NCBI GenBank assembly: GCA_048621635.1 | Contig: JBMCWH010000002.1 | Coordinates: 2,227-66,226, forward strand | DNA length: 64,000 nucleotides | DNA from: Patescibacteria group bacterium | GTDB taxonomy: Bacteria; Patescibacteriota; WWE3; JAUXAW01; JAYEID01 | Reading direction: 5' to 3' | Translations under genes and position numbers: made by a program | In this document: in pieces, positions 6,326-39,501 of the stretch | How positions within the stretch are numbered: position 1 is the stretch's first letter | Layout of the letters: each line of letters starts with the position of its first letter | The notes under the pieces: model-generated | The model's input: only the letters and a program-made list of their open reading frames with translations | What the model was told of the DNA's origin: nothing | Databases searched by the model: none

Positions 6326-6336
6326 TTGATTAGAAC

Positions 6337-6369
6337 GCCAATTAATAATCTCGGACTTTATTAATTGGC
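6337..6369. repeat. REP-like palindrome copy A (GCCAATTAATAA-TCTCGGACT-TTATTAATTGGC)
   Basis: Perfect 12-bp arms with a 9-nt loop. Positions 6329-6370 are identical to 39370-39411. Confidence 0.9.
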
Positions 6370-6441
6370 TTTTTAATGCACTGTATTTTATCTAAGCAAA
6401 GTATGTTGTTTCCAATAAGTTAAGGTGCTAAACTCAAACAA

Positions 6442-11213: not shown

Positions 11214-11224
11214 GACTCAAGAAT

Positions 11225-11263
11225 GCGAAGGGGTTTTTCCGGCCCCCTTCGCATCTTCTTTTC
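11225..11263 (+). terminator. Rho-independent terminator
   Basis: GCGAAGGGG (11225-11233) pairs with CCCCTTCGC (11244-11252), followed by ATCTTCTTTTCC. Confidence 0.6.
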
Positions 11264-11284
11264 CTTGTTTTTACTTGAAAGGAT

Positions 11285-11533
11285 GTGTATATGGGAAAGT
11301 CCTGCGATTTGTCTACTTGTTATGCTTACAATGTTGTAGCACCTTTTGCACGGGAAAGGGTTTGTGAGGAGTGTCCTTTGGCTACTGAATGTCAGCGACG
11401 GGGATTTCTTCCTTCGTCGTCGGAACTGACTTCTGAGCAAAAGATCCGAACAAACCACAATACCCGGTTTGTGCGTCTATTTGGTGCTGAAGAAATTCAT
11501 ATCACGATTCCCTCAGATATTCCGATCCGTTAA
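11285..11533 (+). CDS. Small Cys-rich hypothetical protein (82 aa; start may be ATG 11291)
   Basis: Open frame containing CDLSTC...CEECPLATEC, followed by a strong terminator. No family recognised. Confidence 0.45.
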   Translation: MYMGKSCDLSTCYAYNVVAPFARERVCEECPLATECQRRGFLPSSSELTSEQKIRTNHNTRFVRLFGAEEIHITIPSDIPIR

Positions 11534-11541
11534 CCGTCTAT

Positions 11542-11577
11542 AGGACGAAGTCTATTCGGGCTTCGTCCTCTTTTTTA
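11542..11577 (+). terminator. Rho-independent terminator
   Basis: AGGACGAAG (11542-11550) pairs with CTTCGTCCT (11561-11569), followed by CTTTTTT. Confidence 0.7.
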
Positions 11578-11588
11578 TGCAAAAAAAG

Positions 11589-11638
11589 GGACGGGTTTTT
11601 CTTCGAAACAAAATGTTTCGAAAAAAGAAAACCCGTCC
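11589..11638 (-). terminator. Long hairpin terminator for the minus-strand amidase gene
   Basis: GGACGGGTTTTTCTTCGAAAC...GTTTCGAAAAAAGAAAACCCGTCC forms a long stem. On the minus strand it is followed by CTTTTTTTGC. Confidence 0.65.
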
Positions 11639-11642
11639 GTAT

Positions 11643-13524: not shown

Positions 13525-13567
13525 TGTCTCGATCCTTTCTACTATCTAGTGAGTTTTTAATGTGCAA

Positions 13568-13597
13568 GAAAAAAATAAATCTGCCAGAAGGCAGATT
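13568..13597 (-). terminator. Hairpin plus T-run inside the 5' leader of the lipoprotein operon (attenuator-like)
   Basis: AATCTGCC-AGAA-GGCAGATT (13578-13597). On the minus strand it is followed by TATTTTTTTC. It lies between the predicted promoter and the RBS. Confidence 0.45.
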
Positions 13598-13624
13598 AGA
13601 ATAAATTAAATATTATCCACTAGG

Positions 13625-13653
13625 ATTATAACATAAGGGAACACTGCTGTCTA
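13625..13653 (-). promoter_or_regulatory. Sigma70-like promoter (TAGACA-17 nt-TATAAT) on minus strand
   Basis: -35 at 13653..13648 and -10 at 13630..13625, with TGt immediately upstream of the -10. Confidence 0.5.
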
Positions 13654-13711
13654 TTTATTTTGTATCCTTATGTTCTAGGTTATGGGGCTATCAGGCTGTT
13701 CATTTTTCGGT

Positions 13712-13749
13712 AAAAAGAAGTCCGAACTTCTGTATAGAAGTTCGGACTT
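13712..13749 (-). terminator. Rho-independent terminator for gene 13762-14349
   Basis: 14-bp perfect stem AAGTCCGAACTTCT-GTAT-AGAAGTTCGGACTT (13718-13749). A T-run follows on the minus strand. Confidence 0.75.
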
Positions 13750-13761
13750 GTGTTTCTAATG

Positions 13762-16378: not shown

Positions 16379-16394
16379 CGGTTTGCTTTCAGAA

Positions 16395-16985
16395 GCTTAT
16401 ACTTGGTGTTGGATAAATTTTAGAATGCAGTAAGCTCCGAGGACTATTCCTAGAAAGTTAAGAGTTAATTTTTCTGAGACACCAGGCCAGAAAAGGTTTA
16501 GTGTTGCCGAGGCACCAGCAATAGCAGCAACGAAAAAATAAATAAGTGTGTTTTGTCCTAGTTCTGTTACCATTGCCACATTGTTTACTTCAACTCCTAA
16601 GATATACGCTAAACTAAAGCAGAAAAGAACTCCAATTGTAGCTTGAATCAGCAAATTCTTGAAATTGTTCAGGAAAACTTTCTTTTCTTTCCAGACAAGT
16701 GCTGCTGGTAAGACTAGGATAGGGTTGAGCAAGGGGGCAATAACCATTGCTCCAATAACAATCGGTTCAGAATTTATAGAAAGTCCTAAGACACAAGTGG
16801 CTAGACCAGCAAAGGAAAGAAAAGCAAAATCGAAATCAAGGTTTGCTTTTTGTATTAGTCTTTGGTGAGCTTTTTCCAGCTCATTTTTCTCGATTAGGTT
16901 TGAGTTTTTCCAAATTTGCATGTGCTCTCCTTTTTCCATTGTAGTAAACTAGCGCGGTTCATAAAATAGTAAAAAATTTTTCTAG
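16395..16985. repeat. Segmental duplication, copy 1 (carries a 105-bp internal deletion)
   Basis: Near-identical over long stretches to 18691-19385, including about 45 nt upstream of the start codon. Confidence 0.85.
16397..16921 (-). CDS. DUF389-like membrane protein, internally deleted paralog (possibly non-functional)
   Basis: IVIGAMVIAPLLNPI motif. Lacks the 35 codons (VTGVAVSVALVPPIAIMGIALS...) present in the paralog. ATG 16921 is preceded by AAAGGAGAG. Confidence 0.55.
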   Translation of the reverse strand: MQIWKNSNLIEKNELEKAHQRLIQKANLDFDFAFLSFAGLATCVLGLSINSEPIVIGAMVIAPLLNPILVLPAALVWKEKKVFLNNFKNLLIQATIGVLFCFSLAYILGVEVNNVAMVTELGQNTLIYFFVAAIAGASATLNLFWPGVSEKLTLNFLGIVLGAYCILKFIQHQV

Positions 16986-18547: not shown

Positions 18548-18690
18548 TTCTTATATAATAGATGAACATGAAAAAAAGGGCAATAATTGAGTTGAAATAT
18601 TTCCTAACCAAGAAATGAACCGGAGGTTATGCCGGTAAATTTTACCGTACCATTTCGGGTTCTCTTGTGATTACAAGGGTTTTGGGAAAG

Positions 18691-19385
18691 CCTATACCTG
18701 GTGTTGGATAACTTTTAGAATGCTATAAGCTCCGATTAGTATCCCTAGAAAGTTGAGAGTTAAGTTTTCAGTTGCGCTTATCAGAATTTCTGTATTTTGG
18801 TTACTTAGTGCAATGCCCATGATTGCTATTGGCGGAACTAAAGCTACTGATACAGCAACTCCAGTTACTTTTTCTGGGACACCAGGCCAAAAAAGGCTTA
18901 GGGTGGCGGAGGTGCCGGCGATGGCGGCAACGAAGAAATAAATAAGTGCGTTTTGTCCTAGTTCTGAGATTAATTCCACATTCTGTACTTGAATTCCTAA
19001 TATATAAGCTAGGCTTGAGCAAAAAACGACGCCAATAATAACTTGGATAAGCAAATTCTTGAAGTTATTTAGGAACACTCTCTTTTCCTCCCAGATCAGT
19101 GCTGCTGGCAAAACTAAGATAGAGTAAAGTAAGGGGGAAATAATCATTGCCCCAATTACTATTGGGTCAGAGTTTAGGGACATTCCTAAGACACACGTGG
19201 CCAAACCAGCAAAGGAAAGAAAAGCAAAATCGAAATCAAGTTTTGCTTTTTGTATTAGTCTTTGGTGAGCCTTTTCCAGCTCATTTTTCTCGATTAGGCC
19301 TGAGTTTTTCCAAATTTGCATCTGCCCTCCTTTTTCCATTGTAGCAAACTAGCTCGGTTTGCAAAATAGTAAAAGGCTTTTCTAG
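18691..19385. repeat. Segmental duplication, copy 2 (full length)
   Basis: See 16395-16985. Confidence 0.85.
18692..19321 (-). CDS. DUF389-like membrane protein (full-length paralog)
   Basis: IVIGAMIISPLLYSI and AVSVALVPPIAIMG motifs. ATG 19321 is preceded by AAAGGAGGG. Confidence 0.65.
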   Translation of the reverse strand: MQIWKNSGLIEKNELEKAHQRLIQKAKLDFDFAFLSFAGLATCVLGMSLNSDPIVIGAMIISPLLYSILVLPAALIWEEKRVFLNNFKNLLIQVIIGVVFCSSLAYILGIQVQNVELISELGQNALIYFFVAAIAGTSATLSLFWPGVPEKVTGVAVSVALVPPIAIMGIALSNQNTEILISATENLTLNFLGILIGAYSILKVIQHQV

Positions 19386-26052: not shown

Positions 26053-26111
26053 GATTCGGACATTAATTAAGGATAACAAATAATTAATAATCTCGGACTT
26101 TATTAATTGGC
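26053..26111. repeat. REP-like pair: degenerate copy (26053-26072) plus copy B (26082-26111)
   Basis: Copy B is AATTAATAA-TCTCGGACT-TTATTAATTGGC, continuing into GTT. The upstream relic is GATTCGGACATTAATTAAGG. Confidence 0.75.
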
Positions 26112-26150
26112 GTTGGTATGGGTTTTTCTGAAAAATGTTAAAATAGGGCT

Positions 26151-33815: not shown

Positions 33816-35084
33816 ATGAAAAAAGGATATCTAGTTCATTATGGAGAGATAGCTTTAAAGGGTGAAAATCGCAGCTTCTTCGAAAACAAGTTAATCAGCA
33901 ATATTGAAAATGCTGTGAGTGATTTGAACTTGGAAAAGAACCCTGTCAAAAATCTTTACGGCAGGTTGTTTTTGCAACTACCTTCTAGTGAAATAGCGAG
34001 CTCGGAGCCGTGTACCCAACGTGGTACCGCGGTTATCACGCGACAGAAGGAGGATCGCGGACTAAAGTCCGCTACTTCAATATCGAACAGGCTTGAATTC
34101 CGACTAAAAAAAATTCCTGGAATTGCCAATTTTTCTCCAGCTTATCTTGCCGAACGCGATCTGGATAAACTTAAAGAATTAATTTGGCAGGAAACAAAAC
34201 AAAGAATGCCTTTTGAAACATTTCGTATTCGCGCTTCTCGAGCAGACAAATCTTTCCCACTTACATCTAGAGACATTGAATTTAAAATTGGCGGCTACGT
34301 AAAAGAGAAATCACAAGCAGAAGTGGATTTGGAAAATGCGAAACTCAGCTGTTATATAGAAATACTCAGCGATAAAGCTTTATTTTACTTTGAAAAAATA
34401 CCCGGACCAGGTGGTCTTCCCGTAACTACCGCTGGTAAAGTAGGTGCTTTACTTTCTGGAGGAATAGATTCTCCAGTAGCTGCCTGGAAAATAGCGAAGA
34501 GAGGCGCGAAAAATGTCTTTATCCATTTCCACAGTTATCCACAAACGGATAAAGCTTCCCAAGAAAAGGTAAAGGACTTTGTCCGTACGTTGGTTAAATG
34601 GCAAGGTACTAGTACTCTTTTCCTTGTACCTTTACTGAAAATTCAAGAAGAAATTGTTGCCCAATGTCCTAAAAAGCTACGTGTAATCTTGTACAGAAGA
34701 ATGATGCTTAGAATTGCGGAAAAAATAGCGAAAAAAGAAAATTGTTTAGCTCTAGTCACAGGAGAAAGTCTGGGACAGGTAGCTTCACAAACAATAGAAA
34801 ATATGAGAGTGACTGAGGCAGTGACAACACTACCGGTGTTTAGACCATTAATTGGGATGGATAAACAGCAAATAGTGGGCACTGCAAAAAAAATAGGTAC
34901 GTATGAAACGGCTATTAAACCACACCAAGATTGTTGTTCCTTATTCGTTCCTCAACATCCAGAAACAAGAGCAAAATTAGAAATGGTGGAGAAAACAGAA
35001 AAACTGCTGCAATTGGAAAATCTAATTGACTATGCGTTAGAAAATTCTACCAGAGACAAGTTCTTCTTCCCCTCCTTCGCATAA
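33816..35084 (+). CDS. thiI: tRNA 4-thiouridine synthase ThiI, with a ~29-aa insertion in the N-terminal domain
   Basis: YGEIALKGENR, THUMP region, PP-loop LLSGGIDSPVAAW, TGESLGQVASQT and CCSLF. Confidence 0.9.
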   Translation: MKKGYLVHYGEIALKGENRSFFENKLISNIENAVSDLNLEKNPVKNLYGRLFLQLPSSEIASSEPCTQRGTAVITRQKEDRGLKSATSISNRLEFRLKKIPGIANFSPAYLAERDLDKLKELIWQETKQRMPFETFRIRASRADKSFPLTSRDIEFKIGGYVKEKSQAEVDLENAKLSCYIEILSDKALFYFEKIPGPGGLPVTTAGKVGALLSGGIDSPVAAWKIAKRGAKNVFIHFHSYPQTDKASQEKVKDFVRTLVKWQGTSTLFLVPLLKIQEEIVAQCPKKLRVILYRRMMLRIAEKIAKKENCLALVTGESLGQVASQTIENMRVTEAVTTLPVFRPLIGMDKQQIVGTAKKIGTYETAIKPHQDCCSLFVPQHPETRAKLEMVEKTEKLLQLENLIDYALENSTRDKFFFPSFA

Positions 35085-35105
35085 AATCAACGATATATAG
35101 TTCTC

Positions 35106-35371
35106 AAAAAAAAAAAAGGAATCAGCACCCAAGGTTACCTAGACAGTTAAGTCCAAGTTCCTGGGTACTGACCCCTGAAAGGAGACGACCATGAAAGATG
35201 ATCCTTCAAAAGCCAGCTCCTGTGATTGTTAGCCTCGCTGGCTAGCTTCGTTAAAAGCGATTGTGCTAAGTTTCACCAGCGAGGTTGAGGAGAGACTTGA
35301 TCTAGCAATGTCTTGTTGCCCCGTTGTCTCGGTGTCGAGATTTTTCGGGAGGTAAGAGTTGCTAGACCAAA
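35106..35371 (-). ncRNA. Candidate structured RNA (tRNA-like-gene trailer) ending in a strong intrinsic terminator
   Basis: Stems TCTAGCAA/TTGCTAGA, TCTCG-ACAC-CGAGA and CCTCGCTGG/CCAGCGAGG (9 bp). The terminal hairpin 35123-35170 is followed by T12 (A12 on plus strand at 35106-35117). No convincing ORF. Confidence 0.35.
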
Positions 35372-35484
35372 TACGCGGGGGAGGAGTTGAACCTCCGTTT
35401 ATTCATCTTTCCGCTTCCCCTGGGCAGACGCTTGCCCTAAAGAGTAGAAGATGAATTGTCCTCGGCCTCTAGACTACCCGCGTA
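35372..35484 (-). tRNA. tRNA-like gene with about 39 extra nt in the anticodon loop; no encoded CCA; anticodon not assignable (UCU is one reading)
   Basis: Acceptor ACGCGGG/CCCGCGT, D-arm GTCT-AGAGGCCGA-GGAC, T-arm GGAGG-TTCAACT-CCTCC and a 4-5 nt variable loop. The anticodon stem ATTCA/TGAAT is extended by TCTT/AAGA and encloses hairpin GGGCA-AGCGTC-TGCCC. Confidence 0.5.
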
Positions 35485-35642
35485 AAGTTGGTTCCTGTAT
35501 TTTCAGCACATAAATTTTATATAAATAAAAAGGTGCTGTCCTCTTCTACAGGAACCGGTGGCTTCCCCGAGGAAAGGCTGGATTGGTAGCGAGCCCAATC
35601 CTAGGACCCAAGTTGAATACAGTAAAAGTGGGCCCTCGAAAA

Positions 35643-35662
35643 ACAGGAAAACCTGTTTTTTA
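35643..35662 (+). terminator. Rho-independent terminator 105 nt upstream of iscS
   Basis: ACAGG-AAAA-CCTGT followed by TTTTTT. Confidence 0.55.
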
Positions 35663-35766
35663 CGTTAAAGTACAACTGAACTGTGGAGAAACTATAACAT
35701 GTGCTTACGGTAATGTCAAATCCCCTACGCTTTATTACTACCAGATTAAATGGTATCATTTAAACT

Positions 35767-36984
35767 ATGGAAGTATATTTGGACAACGCAGCAACAACAA
35801 AAGTAGATCCAGATGTAGAAAAAGCGATGCAACCATATTTTTGCGAGAAGTACGGAAATGCAAGTTCTCTGCATGATTGGGGAAGAGAAGCAAAAGAAGC
35901 TGTGGATGAAGCAAGAGAAACAATAGCCAATTTCCTCAATGCAGGAAAACCAACTGAAATTATTTTTACTGGTTGCGCAACAGAAAGTAATAATCTTGCG
36001 CTTAAGGGTACGGTTGAAAACGTTGCCAAGGACTGTTCCCAGTTTAAAGGTGGAAATAAACCGCACTTGATTATTTCTTCTATTGAACATCATTCTGTCT
36101 TAGACACTGCTAAATATTTAAAGGAAGCGGGAAAAGCAGAAATCTCTTGGTTAGACGTTGACCAAGTGGGGAAGGTTGATCCAAAAGAAATTGACAACCT
36201 TATTAAAGAGGAAACAGTTCTGGTCTCTGTTATGTATGTTAACAACGAGATTGGCACTATTGAACCTTTAGAAGAAATTGGTAATGTTATTAGAAAACAC
36301 AAAAAGGAACGAGAAGGGAAAACAAATTCGCCTCCTTTATACTTTCACACTGATGCAGTACAGGGTATTGAGTATTTGGAAACAGACGTGCAGAAGCTTA
36401 ACCTTGATTTGCTTTCTCTTGCCGGACATAAGATTCACGCTCCTAAAGGTGTGGGTGCATTATATGTCAGAGAAGGAACAAAGGTGGCAACACAAATACA
36501 TGGCGGTGGCCAGGAAAACGGATTACGGGCGGGAACAGAAAACATTCCTTACATTGTTGGTTTGGGGAAGGCAATTAAGTTACTAGAAGATTACCAAAAC
36601 TCAGATATAGGAGAAAAAGTTACAAGGTTAAGGGATATGTTAATAGAAAACATCTTAGCTGATGTGCCACAAGCACAATTAACTGGTCCTGAGAAAGACA
36701 GGGTTTCGCACATAGCTAGCTTTGTTTTCCCCAATGCGGAAGGAGAAGCATTGCTGTTGCATTTGAACCGGGCGGGAATTGCCGCTTCCTCTGGTTCTGC
36801 TTGTACCTCTGGGACTTTAGAAACATCTCATGTATTGGAAGCAATTGGTATAGCGCAAGACTTAGCACATACTTCCCTGCGTTTATCACTTAGCCGTAGT
36901 ACTTCCGGTAAAGAAATTGATTATGTAATTGAAAAATTACCGGAGATAACAAAAGAAATTAGGAATATGGCTCCATCTGTTTGA
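35767..36984 (+). CDS. iscS: Cysteine desulfurase (NifS/IscS type)
   Basis: YLDNAATT, the PLP-Lys region SLAGHKIHAPKGVGALY and the active-site loop SSGSACTSG. Confidence 0.9.
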   Translation: MEVYLDNAATTKVDPDVEKAMQPYFCEKYGNASSLHDWGREAKEAVDEARETIANFLNAGKPTEIIFTGCATESNNLALKGTVENVAKDCSQFKGGNKPHLIISSIEHHSVLDTAKYLKEAGKAEISWLDVDQVGKVDPKEIDNLIKEETVLVSVMYVNNEIGTIEPLEEIGNVIRKHKKEREGKTNSPPLYFHTDAVQGIEYLETDVQKLNLDLLSLAGHKIHAPKGVGALYVREGTKVATQIHGGGQENGLRAGTENIPYIVGLGKAIKLLEDYQNSDIGEKVTRLRDMLIENILADVPQAQLTGPEKDRVSHIASFVFPNAEGEALLLHLNRAGIAASSGSACTSGTLETSHVLEAIGIAQDLAHTSLRLSLSRSTSGKEIDYVIEKLPEITKEIRNMAPSV

Positions 36985-38486: not shown

Positions 38487-38521
38487 CTTTTTTTCATAAC
38501 CTTTCATAATCTCTTTCATAA

Positions 38522-38542
38522 TCTCGGACTTTATTAATCGCC
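38522..38542. repeat. REP-like copy D (degenerate left arm)
   Basis: TCTCGGACT loop plus right arm TTATTAATCGCC, ending 1 nt before the transposase stop codon (38544-38546). Preceded by the 12-nt tandem TTTCATAATCTC x2 (38502-38525). Confidence 0.7.
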
Positions 38543-38543
38543 T

Positions 38544-39311
38544 TCAATATGCCATTTCTTTGTATTGTTCGACCAACTCAGCTTTCTGATTCTTGTCTAG
38601 TTCCTCAAACTTACGAAACCAACCGAAATCATCATCAATTGCTACATCTTTCAAGCGCATAACCCCAAATTGATCGATCTCTGCTTCAGTAAATTTCTTA
38701 TATTCCTCTCTACTTCCAAATTCCCCGAGAACTAAATCAGTATTAAGAAAAGAATAGAAATCTCTTCTTGCTAGATACGTATTGAGACTAGACCAAGGGT
38801 ACTCAATTAACTGATTAACTGAATCTAAACCAAGTTTCTGTGGATTGATGTGCTGGTACCTAGTGACGTGAATTAATTGTTCATCACTTTCAACCTTAAC
38901 CGATTTGAACCGCCCTTGAAACAACCCACCTACCCTATCCTGCCGTTTATTGAAATACTTGGTATAAGAAGTACAAATACGGCGCATAAAATTCGTAATT
39001 CCGTCTTCGTTTAGTTGTTTAAAGACAAAGTGGAAATGATTAGGCATTAGACAGAAAGAAATTATATCTACAGCTGGTTTAATTATTTTCGTTTCTAAAT
39101 CCTCGATTATTGCCTCACGTGCTGCAGGTGATGTTGCTCTTTCTATCCTAGTACTAATTACGCTATAAGGAACTGAATATTTAAGAGAATGAGCTATAAC
39201 TTCTAGAAAATGAGAATAAAAACTATTGTTGGGGAAAATAATCCGCTTTTCTATACCTCTATTGTAAATGTGATAGGTACTGTCAGTTATTAACGGGTTG
39301 TCTCTTCTCAT
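38544..39311 (-). CDS. IS200-like HUH/Y1 transposase, REP-associated tyrosine transposase (RAYT)-like
   Basis: YHIYNRG, HUH motif MPNHFHFV, GGLFQGRFKS and the catalytic Tyr context VTRYQHINP. ATG 39311 lies 6 nt after TATATT. The longer ORF reaches 39371. Confidence 0.8.
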   Translation of the reverse strand: MRRDNPLITDSTYHIYNRGIEKRIIFPNNSFYSHFLEVIAHSLKYSVPYSVISTRIERATSPAAREAIIEDLETKIIKPAVDIISFCLMPNHFHFVFKQLNEDGITNFMRRICTSYTKYFNKRQDRVGGLFQGRFKSVKVESDEQLIHVTRYQHINPQKLGLDSVNQLIEYPWSSLNTYLARRDFYSFLNTDLVLGEFGSREEYKKFTEAEIDQFGVMRLKDVAIDDDFGWFRKFEELDKNQKAELVEQYKEMAY

Positions 39312-39377
39312 AAGTGGAATATAGCTGTGTTGATTGTTAATGTCAATAGGTAGTAAACAATAAAAGCGCATTAGAAC

Positions 39378-39410
39378 GCCAATTAATAATCTCGGACTTT
39401 ATTAATTGGC
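39378..39410. repeat. REP-like palindrome copy C (perfect)
   Basis: GCCAATTAATAA-TCTCGGACT-TTATTAATTGGC. Confidence 0.9.
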
Positions 39411-39501
39411 TGTAACATAGGGAATCACATCGAGCCACATGGGGCATAGCAGATATTGAGGGGGCTGAAATTTTTACGCTTTTTTGTTAGAATTATTGGT
39501 G

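What the first reader, a model, noticed from the sequence alone, without database searches (positions are those of the whole stretch)
35372..35484. tRNA-like gene with a ~39-nt hairpin inserted in the anticodon loop
The minus strand carries a near-perfect cloverleaf frame:
- a 7-bp acceptor (ACGCGGG/CCCGCGT)
- a canonical D-arm with GG (GTCT-AGAGGCCGA-GGAC, Glu/Arg-like)
- a short variable loop
- a canonical T-arm (GGAGG-TTCAACT-CCTCC)

Between the anticodon-stem strands ATTCA and TGAAT lie 46 nt instead of 7. The stem is prolonged by TCTT/AAGA and encloses a GC-rich hairpin GGGCA-AGCGTC-TGCCC. One register gives a canonical-looking CU-UCU-AC loop (Arg UCU), but it needs two nucleotides at position 26, so the anticodon is not assignable.

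The four other tRNAs whose 3' ends lie in this window (the three complete genes and the edge tRNA-Arg) all encode CCA, and this gene does not. Bacterial tRNA introns known to me are group I introns of more than 200 nt. A 39-nt insert is archaeal/eukaryal in size, yet I could not draw a clean bulge-helix-bulge.

The gene could be an intron-containing tRNA, a tRNA disabled by a small palindromic insertion, or a tRNA-mimic RNA.
Basis: partly seen in the sequence, partly recalled or inferred. Interest (0 to 1): 0.7.

Follow-up and report, generated by a model that had tools for sequence, protein, structure and literature searches.

The report
Non-decoding tRNA-shaped RNA in CPR bacterium
A small-genome (Patescibacteria) bacterium carries an intact tRNA-shaped gene whose anticodon loop is replaced by a long hairpin, so it cannot read codons; related genomes keep similarly altered tRNA look-alikes at the same spot, which points to a tRNA-derived RNA with a non-translational job, although a freshly broken tRNA gene is not excluded.

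Summary
Confirmed. At 35372-35483 (-) the Rfam tRNA model scores 47 bits over all 71 positions. 46 nt, not 7, lie between the anticodon-stem strands. All 21 stem pairs are intact and no CCA is encoded. The host is a Patescibacteria (CPR) bacterium. The gene lies in the 680-nt thiI-iscS gap, the most structured intergenic region of the window.

The body is tRNA-Glu type, but no splice register gives a loop that fits it. Canonical tRNA-Glu(UUC) and tRNA-Arg(UCU) with CCA exist in the same window. There is no bulge-helix-bulge beyond chance. The insert is too short for a group I intron, is not a copy of the window's REP family, and has no phage relatives.

In six related lineages the same gap holds minus-strand cloverleaf genes with intact acceptor/T arms but remodelled anticodon or D arms, including a second 44-nt rod. 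87 unrelated thiI loci hold none. One of these genes is 67/70 identical between genomes saturated at neutral sites, while its loop differs, so it is a selected non-decoding RNA.

Best reading: a non-decoding tRNA-shaped RNA, possibly a handle for tRNA-processing enzymes within a structured non-coding transcript. A recently disabled pseudogene remains a serious rival, because constraint on this copy cannot be measured.

The parts
35372..35483 (-). tRNA-shaped gene (112 nt from A1 to discriminator A73; U at 35484 is position -1). No CCA is encoded; the 3' flank is UUUGG.
   Evidence: Rfam RF00005 47.2 bits, model 1-71. The MFE fold is a cloverleaf, z -3.4. Identical in sister assembly L001.
35477..35483 (-). 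Acceptor 5' strand ACGCGGG. It pairs with 35373-35379 (CCCGCGU). The discriminator A is at 35372.
   Evidence: 7/7 pairs.
35458..35474 (-). D-arm GUCU-AGAGGCCGA-GGAC, of tRNA-Glu type.
   Evidence: 16 of 17 positions identical to E. coli tRNA-Glu, whose sequence was verified against annotated genomes. G18 and G19 are present.
35401..35456 (-). Remodelled anticodon arm (56 nt). It consists of the 5-bp anticodon stem (35452-35456 / 35401-35405) and the 46-nt segment, and forms an irregular hairpin of about 22 bp.
   Evidence: Arm alone -20.8 kcal/mol, z -3.2. Helix layout.
35406..35451 (-). 46-nt segment that replaces the 7-nt anticodon loop. UCUU (35448-35451) pairs with AAGA (35406-35409). The middle is weak and G-U rich. 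The tip is hairpin GGGCA-AGCGUC-UGCCC (35422-35437).
   Evidence: The insert alone is not more stable than shuffles (z -0.65). It is unique in the window and in all fetched loci apart from L001, the same species' own copy.
35380..35396 (-). T-arm GGAGG-UUCAACU-CCUCC. The 4-nt variable loop AAAC is at 35397-35400.
   Evidence: 5/5 pairs; U54, U55, C56 and A58 are present.
35490..35556 (-). Long hairpin that ends 6 nt upstream of the gene's 5' end.
   Evidence: Fold of 35485-35690 (-), z -4.6. Equivalent hairpins end 3-6 nt before the gene in L002, L009 and L011.
35117..35371 (-). Highly structured 3' flank. Hairpins lie at 35371-35296 (starting directly after the discriminator), 35284-35233, 35221-35180 and 35176-35117. 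The last is followed by U12 (35117-35106), which reads as a minus-strand intrinsic terminator.
   Evidence: MFE -111.8 kcal/mol, z -9.8; coordinates; sequence; no Rfam family.
35691..35719 (-). Promoter-like site TTGACA-17-TATAGT with a TG extension (11 of 12 matches) at the iscS-proximal end of the gap. It is followed by a 9-bp hairpin and U-run at 35639-35660.
   Evidence: This is a prediction only. A weaker site at 35542-35514 lies inside a hairpin and is mutated in L001.

Best explanation
The element is a non-decoding, tRNA-shaped RNA gene of a Patescibacteria bacterium. It descends from a redundant tRNA gene copy with a Glu-type body.

What the sequence shows directly:
- The parts that make the top half and elbow of the tRNA L-shape are fully intact: the acceptor stem, T-arm, D-arm, U8, G18, G19 and the T-loop.
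- The 7-nt anticodon loop is replaced by 46 nt that prolong the anticodon stem into an irregular hairpin of about 22 bp.
- It therefore has no anticodon loop and no encoded CCA.

What is inferred from known identity rules: ribosomes cannot use it for decoding, and GluRS or ArgRS cannot recognise it through the anticodon.

What is inferred from context:
- It is transcribed on the minus strand inside a very structured non-coding unit. A long hairpin ends 6 nt before it, another starts right after its discriminator, and a hairpin plus U12 terminator closes the unit.
- The favoured mechanism is that the cloverleaf serves as a handle for tRNA end-processing enzymes: RNase P at the 5' end, and RNase Z at the CCA-less, U-rich 3' end. 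These enzymes read only the acceptor/T-arm half. Cleavage would cut the precursor and define the ends of the flanking hairpin RNAs and of a stable 112-nt tRNA-like species.
- This would explain why, across relatives, the acceptor and T arms stay perfect while the anticodon arm and D-loop are free to be remodelled.

The biological role of the products is unknown. A role as a mimic for a tRNA-binding protein such as the neighbouring ThiI is an alternative within the same explanation.
For: (1) The cloverleaf is intact, with 21 of 21 stem pairs and all elbow nucleotides, despite the loss of the loop.

(2) It is part of a recurring pattern. The same thiI-iscS gap in six related lineages holds minus-strand cloverleaf genes without encoded CCA:
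- L002/L003: three genes, with a 6-nt loop, a 22-nt D-loop insert, and a 7-bp stem with an 8-nt loop.
- L103: a 7-bp stem with a 7-nt loop.
- L009/L010: D-arm hairpins plus a 9-bp stem with a tetraloop.
- L011: a 44-nt rod and a 9-nt loop.
- L020/L021: a 6-nt loop.
- L022: an effective 5-nt loop.
Only 3 of 189 stem pairs are broken across the nine genes.

(3) 87 unrelated thiI loci (400 kb) contain 11 tRNAs, all canonical.

(4) One family member is demonstrably selected. L002 and L103 are saturated at neutral sites (39% identity at thiI four-fold sites). The tl-3 body, including its extended anticodon stem, is 67/70 identical (P about 1e-23). Its loop differs in sequence and length, and the ArgRS determinant A20 is changed.

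(5) A second, unrelated tRNA body in L011 carries a rod of nearly the same size at the same syntenic position.

(6) The gap is the most structured of the window's 12 intergenic gaps and is biased to the minus strand (z -8.6 against -5.1). The 3' flank has z -9.8 and ends in a minus-strand terminator.

(7) Promoter-like sites lie at the iscS end of the gap in the window, L002 and L009. L011 has a similar site read by eye that the scan did not list.

(8) The gene is redundant for decoding: canonical tRNA-Glu(UUC) and tRNA-Arg(UCU) with CCA are in the same window.
Against: - No direct constraint can be shown for this copy. The only close relative is 99.7% identical (0 differences in the gene, about 1 expected), and the next relatives have 63% ThiI identity or less.
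- The bodies in different lineages look like different tRNA types (Glu, Arg, Asp-like), so orthology is unproven.
- The locus is dispensable in some relatives: the gap is only 37-72 nt in L004-L007 and L019.
- Some cluster members do decay. tl-2 is truncated in L103, and an anticodon-stem pair is broken in L021.
- The 46-nt insert by itself is not significantly structured.
- In L103 the conserved upstream element has its own terminator, so the processing-handle role cannot be universal.
- Transcription, RNase P/Z cleavage and the presence of rnz and cca genes are all untested.
Confidence: 0.45

Rival explanations
1. Recently disabled tRNA pseudogene. A redundant Glu-type tRNA gene in a decaying tRNA cluster suffered an insertion or local duplication of about 39-46 nt in its anticodon loop. 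It has not yet had time to accumulate further damage and has no function.
For: - A canonical tRNA-Glu exists elsewhere in the window.
- L011 has an uninterrupted tRNA-Glu(UUC) in the same gap.
- Other cluster members are visibly decaying or lost: L103 tl-2, the L021 stem mismatch, and the deletion of the gap in L004-L007 and L019.
- tRNA-fragment duplications typical of recombination lie nearby (L011 positions 80-220, the L103 insert).
- The insert alone shows no significant structure.
- No constraint is measurable for this copy.
Against: - All 21 stem pairs and the tertiary nucleotides are intact.
- Nine aberrant cloverleaves in seven lineages (the window and six relatives) have only 3 of 189 broken pairs, which is not what a graveyard of pseudogenes should look like in streamlined genomes.
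- tl-3 shows that such remodelled genes can be under strong selection.
- Two different tRNA bodies carry rods of nearly equal size at the same position.
- The gene is embedded in a highly structured unit bounded by a terminator.
Confidence: 0.3
2. Functional tRNA with a new kind of short bacterial intron or intervening sequence. The hairpin would be excised by host enzymes, for example cleavage of the rod followed by ligation, to give a decoding tRNA such as Arg UCU at 36/37-38/39 in the shifted register.
For: - In the +1 register the 5' part reads as a canonical CU-UCU-A loop. In L011 the 5' part reads CU-GUC-G (Asp) in the normal register.
- Patescibacteria are unusually rich in tRNA introns, at 35/36 in Asn and Asp; 36/37 in tRNA-Arg is a common bacterial site (PMC13011429).
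- The insert size matches archaeal introns.
Against: - There is no BHB compatible with restoring a 7-nt loop, and the one strict hit is at chance level.
- The insert is too short for a self-splicing intron, there is no RF00028 hit, and no U|...G| boundary pair fits.
- The Arg register needs two nucleotides at position 26, and the body is Glu-type with C20, not the A20 that ArgRS uses (identity rule from memory).
- tRNA-Arg(UCU) and tRNA-Glu(UUC) are already present with CCA.
- Relatives have 4-, 6-, 8-, 9- and 12-nt loops that cannot be introns.
- No EndA, RtcB or RNase III gene is in the window, although this covers only 64 kb.
Confidence: 0.06
3. tRNA gene interrupted by a small mobile palindromic element, of the REP/MITE type mobilised by the nearby Y1 (IS200-like) transposase.
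For: A Y1_Tnp gene (38544-39371) flanked by REP-like palindromes lies 3 kb away, and four copies of that palindrome are in the window.
Against: - The insert shares no sequence with that family, which is AT-rich (CCAATTAATAATCTCGGACTTTATTAATTGG).
- The insert occurs once in the window, and elsewhere only in L001, the same species' copy of the gene; none of the other 103 fetched loci has it.
- It has no viral or phage matches.
Confidence: 0.04

Closest known systems
Canonical bacterial tRNA, specifically tRNA-Glu (Rfam RF00005)
   Same: It has the full cloverleaf: a 7-bp acceptor, a 4-bp D stem with G18 and G19, a 5-bp anticodon stem, and a 5-bp T stem with a UUCNANU loop. The D-arm is 16/17 identical to E. 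coli tRNA-Glu, with A26 and a 4-nt xAAC variable loop.
   Different: 46 nt replace the 7-nt anticodon loop, with no U33, anticodon or R37 in the proper register. A1-U72 and A73 differ from E. coli G1-C72 and G73. No CCA is encoded, whereas the four canonical tRNAs of the same window have it.
tRNA-like processing modules such as mascRNA at the 3' end of MALAT1 / MEN-beta (Rfam RF01684), and bacterial sRNAs released from tRNA precursors (3'ETS-leuZ type). This comparison is from general knowledge.
   Same: It is a cloverleaf with a degenerate anticodon arm inside or next to a longer structured non-coding transcript, and it would be recognised by RNase P/Z through the acceptor/T half.
   Different: mascRNA is eukaryotic and has a shortened anticodon arm, not a lengthened one. 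No bacterial dedicated (non-decoding) punctuation tRNA has been described. Cleavage is untested here.
Bacterial tRNA mimics: YrlA Y RNA (PMC4201824), the tmRNA tRNA-like domain, and Bacillus cereus tRNA-Other (the last from memory)
   Same: These are bacterial non-coding RNAs that imitate the tRNA top half without decoding.
   Different: In YrlA the 5' and 3' ends form the Ro-binding stem that takes the place of the anticodon stem, and the acceptor is closed. Here the ends are at the acceptor and the anticodon arm is closed. tmRNA lacks D and anticodon arms. No rsr gene is in the window.
Archaeal/eukaryal pre-tRNAs with bulge-helix-bulge introns
   Same: The insert is about 37-45 nt and lies in the anticodon loop of a good cloverleaf.
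   Different: The host is bacterial. There is no BHB that restores a 7-nt loop. No EndA or RtcB was seen. The stem simply continues as a rod.
Group I intron-containing tRNA genes of Patescibacteria and other bacteria (PMC13011429)
   Same: The same phylum, and an interruption in the anticodon loop.
   Different: Those introns are full ribozymes of group I size. Here there are only 46 nt, with no P3-P8 core, no Rfam hit and no ribozyme-compatible boundaries.

Membership tests
tRNA (decoding transfer RNA, RF00005) | Cloverleaf with a 7-bp acceptor, D, anticodon and T stems, and the conserved elbow nucleotides | tested here: met
   47.2 bits over model positions 1-71; 21/21 stem pairs.
tRNA (decoding transfer RNA, RF00005) | 7-nt anticodon loop with U33, an anticodon and a purine at 37 | tested here: not met
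   46 nt lie between the stem strands. In the proper register the first 7 nt are UCUUCUA, with C33 and U37.
tRNA (decoding transfer RNA, RF00005) | 3' CCA end, encoded or added, and aminoacylation | not testable with these tools
   CCA is not encoded; the flank is UUUGG. No CCA-adding enzyme gene is in the 64-kb window. Charging is untestable.
BHB (archaeal-type) tRNA intron | Helix, 3-nt bulge, 4-bp helix, 3-nt bulge, helix, positioned so that excision restores a 7-nt loop | tested here: not met
   One strict motif was found, but excision would leave about 24 nt. Motifs of that kind occur in 24% of shuffled arms. L011 has none.
BHB (archaeal-type) tRNA intron | Splicing endonuclease (EndA) and ligase (RtcB) in the genome | tested here: inconclusive
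   None among the 50 ORFs of the window, but the rest of the genome was not available.
Group I intron in a tRNA gene | Ribozyme core (P3-P8) of full group I size, recognisable by covariance models | tested here: not met
   Only 46 nt, and no RF00028 match even at E up to 10.
Group I intron in a tRNA gene | 5' exon ending in U and intron ending in G at boundaries that restore a canonical loop | tested here: not met
   No register satisfies both conditions.
REP / RAYT-mobilised palindrome | Multiple dispersed copies of the same palindrome in the genome, related to those flanking the Y1 transposase | tested here: not met
   The insert is unique in the 64-kb window; among the 104 fetched loci it occurs only in L001, the same species' copy of the gene. 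The window's REP family has a different sequence.
YrlA-type bacterial Y RNA | 5'/3' ends form a Ro60-binding stem in place of the anticodon stem, with an rsr gene nearby | tested here: not met
   The ends are at the acceptor stem and the anticodon arm is closed. No Ro60/TROVE ORF is in the window.
tRNA-like processing module (mascRNA-like) | Cloverleaf with intact acceptor/T half and a non-functional anticodon arm, embedded in a longer structured transcript | tested here: met
   The transcript itself is predicted, not observed.
tRNA-like processing module (mascRNA-like) | Cleavage by RNase P and RNase Z that releases the tRNA-like RNA and matures the flanking RNA | not testable with these tools
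   This needs RNA-seq, RACE or in vitro cleavage.
tRNA pseudogene | Neutral accumulation of substitutions, including ones that break stems | tested here: inconclusive
   There are no broken pairs in this copy, but the only close relative is 99.7% identical. A paralogous family member (tl-3) is clearly under selection, while others decay.

The most novel reading that the evidence does not exclude
Patescibacteria may possess a previously unknown class of short (about 40 nt), protein-dependent intervening sequences in tRNA anticodon loops. The rod would be cut out and the halves rejoined, so that the window gene and the L011 rod gene (5' loop halves CU-UCU-A and CU-GUC-G) mature into decoding tRNAs. 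This would be a third kind of bacterial tRNA intron besides group I and group II.
Probability: 0.06. Interest if true: 0.9.

Novelty: new variant of a known kind. Interest (0 to 1): 0.55.

Why it matters
tRNA look-alikes with non-translational jobs are well documented in eukaryotes and viruses, but only a few types are known in bacteria: tmRNA, YrlA and a Bacillus pseudo-tRNA. If the reading is right, a clade of ultra-small CPR bacteria keeps a syntenic, fast-evolving set of tRNA-derived RNAs. In these RNAs only the half read by processing and modification enzymes is conserved, and the anticodon arm is remodelled at will, up to a 22-bp rod.

That would have three consequences:
- It would add a new bacterial tRNA-mimic type.
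- It would offer a natural counterpart of the engineered "tRNA scaffold".
- It would serve as a warning for genome annotation and completeness estimates in CPR genomes, because ARAGORN in intron mode calls this gene tRNA-Phe with an intron.

It also marks the thiI-iscS gap as a hotspot of uncharacterised structured RNAs. If it is only a fresh pseudogene, the interest is small.

Tried and rejected
- ARAGORN with intron detection calls tRNA-Phe(GAA) with a 37-nt intron at a non-canonical position and an 8-bp acceptor. I rejected this as an arbitrary fit, because the two complementary strands allow many registers.
- Bulge-helix-bulge scan: chance-level and non-restoring.
- Group I remnant: there is no P1-like pairing at the insert's 5' end, no terminal G, and no Rfam hit.
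- REP/MITE insertion: a real REP family exists in the window but is unrelated, and the insert is unique.
- Phage or mobile-element origin: no match in IMG/VR for a D-arm...T-arm pattern with a long spacer, and no blastn hit in phage genomes.
- Other Rfam families for the rod or the flanks: none at E up to 10.
- A small protein-coding gene in the gap: none is credible.
- The genome-collection scan with ThiI returned only 7 distant loci. The metagenome scan with a clade ThiI alignment was flooded by generic ThiI of 48% identity or less. Neither gave intermediate relatives, so both sets were used only as negative controls.
- The conserved 117-nt element of L002/L103 was searched for in the window and not found.
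- Sequence homology between the window rod and the L011 rod: none beyond chance, by inspection of the two arm sequences.
- Window against L001 for constraint: there is no power, with 0 differences in the gene against about 1 expected.
Full report
**1. The observation**

The minus strand of 35372-35484 reads ACGCGGG-UA-GUCU-AGAGGCCGA-GGAC-A-AUUCA-[46 nt]-UGAAU-AAAC-GGAGG-UUCAACU-CCUCC-CCCGCGU-A.

- The Rfam tRNA model matches it from model position 1 to 71 at 47.2 bits (gathering score 29), with a 45-nt insertion in the anticodon loop.
- The minimum-free-energy fold of the 113 nt is the cloverleaf with a long anticodon arm (-45 kcal/mol, z -3.4, no shuffle as stable).
- All 21 stem pairs are standard pairs.
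- The other four tRNAs of the window (Lys, Glu, Ala and the truncated Arg at the edge) are followed by CCA. This gene is followed by UUUGG.
- An independent assembly of the same species (L001, GCA_048622755.1, 99.7% identical over 8.7 kb) has the identical gene, so it is not an assembly artefact.

**2. Host and setting**

- The neighbouring genes are bacterial: thiI, a class-V aminotransferase (IscS/NifS-like), iscU, ruvC, ruvA, ruvB, mgsA and uvrABC.
- The closest ThiI homologues are annotated as Patescibacteria group bacteria.
- The gene lies on the minus strand in a 682-nt gap between thiI (33816-35084, +) and the IscS-like gene (35767-36984, +). The gap has no credible ORF.
- It is the most structured of the window's 12 intergenic gaps, more so on the minus strand (z -8.6) than on the plus strand (-5.1).
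- On the minus strand, a 67-nt hairpin (35556-35490) ends 6 nt before the gene.
- A hairpin with a 13-bp closing stem (35371-35296) starts directly after the discriminator. Two more hairpins follow, and a hairpin with a 17-bp closing stem (35176-35117) is followed by U12, the signature of a minus-strand intrinsic terminator. This 277-nt flank has z -9.8.
- A promoter-like site matching 11 of 12 positions lies at 35719-35691 (-).

None of this region matches any Rfam family apart from the tRNA model.

**3. Is it an intron-containing tRNA?**

- I enumerated every way of removing one block so as to leave a 7-nt loop.
  - In the register required by tRNA geometry (one nucleotide at position 26), no product has U33.
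  - In the +1 register, which needs two nucleotides at position 26, loops for Phe, Leu, UCA or Arg(UCU) can be made. This ambiguity arises only because the two strands are complementary.
- The body is of tRNA-Glu type. The D-arm is 16/17 identical to E. coli tRNA-Glu, whose sequence I verified against annotated genomes, and it shares A26 and the 4-nt variable loop. It has C, not A, at position 20, so it does not fit Arg (identity rule from general knowledge).
- Canonical tRNA-Glu(UUC) and tRNA-Arg(UCU) genes with CCA are present in the same window.
- A formal bulge-helix-bulge scan finds one strict motif. It would remove only about 22 nt and leave about 24 nt, and motifs of that kind arise in 24% of shuffled arms. 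The L011 analogue has none.
- At 46 nt the insert is far below the size of a self-splicing intron, and no group I model matches.
- The only documented bacterial tRNA introns, including those of Patescibacteria, are group I and group II (PMC13011429).
- ARAGORN's call of tRNA-Phe with an intron needs an 8-bp acceptor and a non-canonical site.
- No EndA, RtcB, RNase III, RNase Z or CCA-adding enzyme gene is in the window, but this is only 64 kb.

**4. Is the insert a mobile palindrome?**

- The window has a true REP-like family (CCAATTAATAA-TCTCGGACT-TTATTAATTGG) at 6329-6370, 26071-26112, 38502-38543 and 39370-39411. The last two copies flank a Y1 (IS200-like) transposase ORF.
- The tRNA insert is unrelated in sequence. 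It occurs once in the window, and elsewhere only in L001, the same species' copy of the gene; the other 103 fetched loci lack it.
- It has no viral or phage relatives.

**5. Related genomes**

ThiI homologues of 54-80% identity come from contigs with the same synteny: uvrC-mgsA-DUF763-thiI-[gap]-iscS-iscU-ruvC-ruvA-ruvB-pgm.

Where a gap of 580-960 nt (about 2.9 kb in L022) is present, it carries minus-strand cloverleaf genes that are abnormal, each in a different way:

- L002/L003 has three:
  - tl-1 is Glu-type with a 6-nt loop, UUUCAG.
  - tl-2 has a 22-nt D-loop insertion.
  - tl-3 is Arg-type with a 7-bp anticodon stem and an 8-nt loop.
- L103 has tl-3 with a 7-nt loop, together with a true tRNA-Cys(GCA) that has CCA.
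- L009/L010 has two hairpins inserted in the D-arm and a 9-bp anticodon stem closed by a CAAC tetraloop.
- L011 has a 109-nt gene with 44 nt between the anticodon-stem strands, folding into a rod of about 20 bp. It also has a gene with a 9-nt loop and a normal tRNA-Glu(UUC).
- L020/L021 has an Asp-like gene with the 6-nt loop UGUCAA.
- L022 has an effective 5-nt loop.

- None of the abnormal genes is followed by CCA.
- Across the nine abnormal genes only 3 of 189 stem pairs are broken.
- In 87 unrelated thiI loci (400 kb) ARAGORN finds 11 tRNAs, all canonical. The six distant Patescibacteria and archaeal loci that were scanned have only normal tRNAs.
- Three lineages (L004-L007, L019) have no gap at all.

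**6. Evidence for selection**

- L002 and L103 have 80% identical ThiI proteins and only 39% identity at thiI four-fold degenerate sites, which means saturation.
  - tl-3 is identical at 67 of 70 body positions, including all 7 pairs of the extended anticodon stem (P about 1e-23 under the neutral rate).
  - Its three substitutions fall at unpaired positions 20, 26 and 59.
  - The loop is GGUGAUAU in one genome and GAUUGAA in the other.

A remodelled, non-decoding cloverleaf in this locus is therefore a selected RNA. The changed A20 also argues against charging by ArgRS.

- There is contrary evidence of decay as well. tl-2 has lost its 5' half in L103. One of the only two differences between L020 and L021 breaks an anticodon-stem pair.
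- For the window gene itself no test is possible. The next relative after the 99.7%-identical L001 has 63% ThiI identity.

**7. Anatomy of the arm**

- The arm consists of 9 continuous pairs (AUUCAUCUU/AAGAUGAAU), a weak G-U-rich middle with one-nucleotide bulges, a 5-bp GC clamp, and a hexaloop AGCGUC. That is about 22 bp.
- The whole arm is more stable than shuffles (z -3.2), but the 46-nt insert alone is not (z -0.65).
- The L011 rod has a similar size and layout (about 20 bp with a GC-rich tip, z -2.5). It has no sequence similarity and sits on a different tRNA body.

**8. Interpretation**

Shown:
- It is an intact tRNA top half and elbow with no anticodon loop and no encoded CCA.
- It is redundant for decoding.
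- It is embedded in a highly structured, terminator-bounded minus-strand region.
- It belongs to a clade-specific set of remodelled cloverleaves, at least one of which is under purifying selection.

Inferred:
- It is a non-decoding tRNA-shaped RNA.
- The pattern of what is conserved (acceptor and T arm) and what is free (anticodon arm and D-loop) matches the recognition requirements of RNase P, RNase Z, the CCA-adding enzyme and ThiI (general knowledge).
- Together with the hairpins that abut both ends, this makes a processing-handle or punctuation role the most economical mechanism. In L002 a conserved 117-nt element is bracketed by tl-2 and tl-3.
- This does not hold everywhere, because in L103 that element has its own terminator.
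- A role as a protein-binding mimic is equally compatible with the data.

I give the functional tRNA-like reading 0.45, a fresh pseudogene 0.30, a novel short intron 0.06 and a mobile-palindrome insertion 0.04. The remainder is unassigned.

**9. Novelty and score**

- No paper in the searchable library describes tRNA-like RNAs or short tRNA insertions in Patescibacteria.
- The closest known kinds are tRNA mimics (mascRNA, YrlA, the tmRNA tRNA-like domain), from which it differs in topology and host.
- I rate it a new variant of a known kind, with interest 0.55. The object and its family are real and unusual, but function and selection are not demonstrated for this copy.

Noticed in passing
window 38502-39411 (also 6329-6370, 26071-26112): A REP-like palindrome family, CCAATTAATAA-TCTCGGACT-TTATTAATTGG, has four copies. 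Two of them immediately flank a 275-aa Y1 (IS200-like) transposase ORF at 38544-39371 (-), inserted between ruvA and ruvB. The arrangement looks like a RAYT/REPtron in a CPR genome. Y1_Tnp genes also sit near thiI in L022 and L104.
   Followed up: partly
window 35095-35371 (-): The 277-nt stretch 3' of the tRNA-like gene folds with z -9.8 into four long hairpins and ends in a hairpin with a 17-bp closing stem followed by U12. It matches no Rfam family and has no sequence counterpart in related loci. It may be an uncharacterised structured RNA.
   Followed up: partly
window 35604-35635 (-) and 35639-35660: The hairpin GGGCCCA...GUAUUCAACU...UGGGUCC contains a T-loop-like sequence and may be the relic of a second tRNA gene. 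Next to it, AAAAACAGG-UUUU-CCUGUUUUU looks like a bidirectional terminator between the strong minus-strand promoter-like site and the rest of the gap.
   Followed up: no
L002 7425-7541 (-), L103 4014-4128 (-): A conserved 117-nt element lies between tl-2 and tl-3. It is about 90% identical between genomes that are saturated at neutral sites, and it folds with z -4.1. It starts with GGUCACCUCCUG, which resembles the anti-Shine-Dalgarno end of 16S rRNA. It matches no Rfam family and is absent from the window.
   Followed up: partly
L002 7344-7421 (-), L103 3826-3902 (-): tl-3 is a tRNA-Arg-like cloverleaf with a 7-bp anticodon stem, a variable 7-8-nt loop, U73 and no CCA. It is under strong purifying selection and is a candidate new tRNA-like RNA in its own right.
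   Followed up: yes
window 11214-11642 and 13525-13761: These are two other intergenic regions with strong folding signals (z about -5 to -5.6) and no Rfam match.
   Followed up: no
window 16393-16939 and 18688-19339: A segment of about 300-650 nt containing a DUF389 gene and its upstream region is duplicated. The copies are 80-87% identical and 2.3-2.4 kb apart, on either side of a TauE-like exporter gene.
   Followed up: no
window 34982-35077: Seven of the 29 differences between the window and the sister assembly L001 cluster in the last 100 nt of thiI. This codes a C-terminal extension that is absent from most homologues (422 aa against about 393).
   Followed up: no
L011 80-220 (-) and L103 3905-3960 (-): Partial tRNA 3' halves (duplicated GGGTTCGAATCCCGCC, GGTTCGGGGCGAATCCTGCC) lie next to the cloverleaf genes. 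They resemble att-site remnants of integrative elements. L022 has 2.9 kb of small unknown ORFs inserted in the gap.
   Followed up: no
L104 1943-2017 (+): An otherwise high-scoring tRNA-Glu (57 bits) appears to have the anticodon loop CCUUCAA, which puts C at the nearly universal U33 position.
   Followed up: no
L008 2893-3906: A LAGLIDADG homing-endonuclease ORF is inserted between mgsA and DUF763 in one relative.
   Followed up: no
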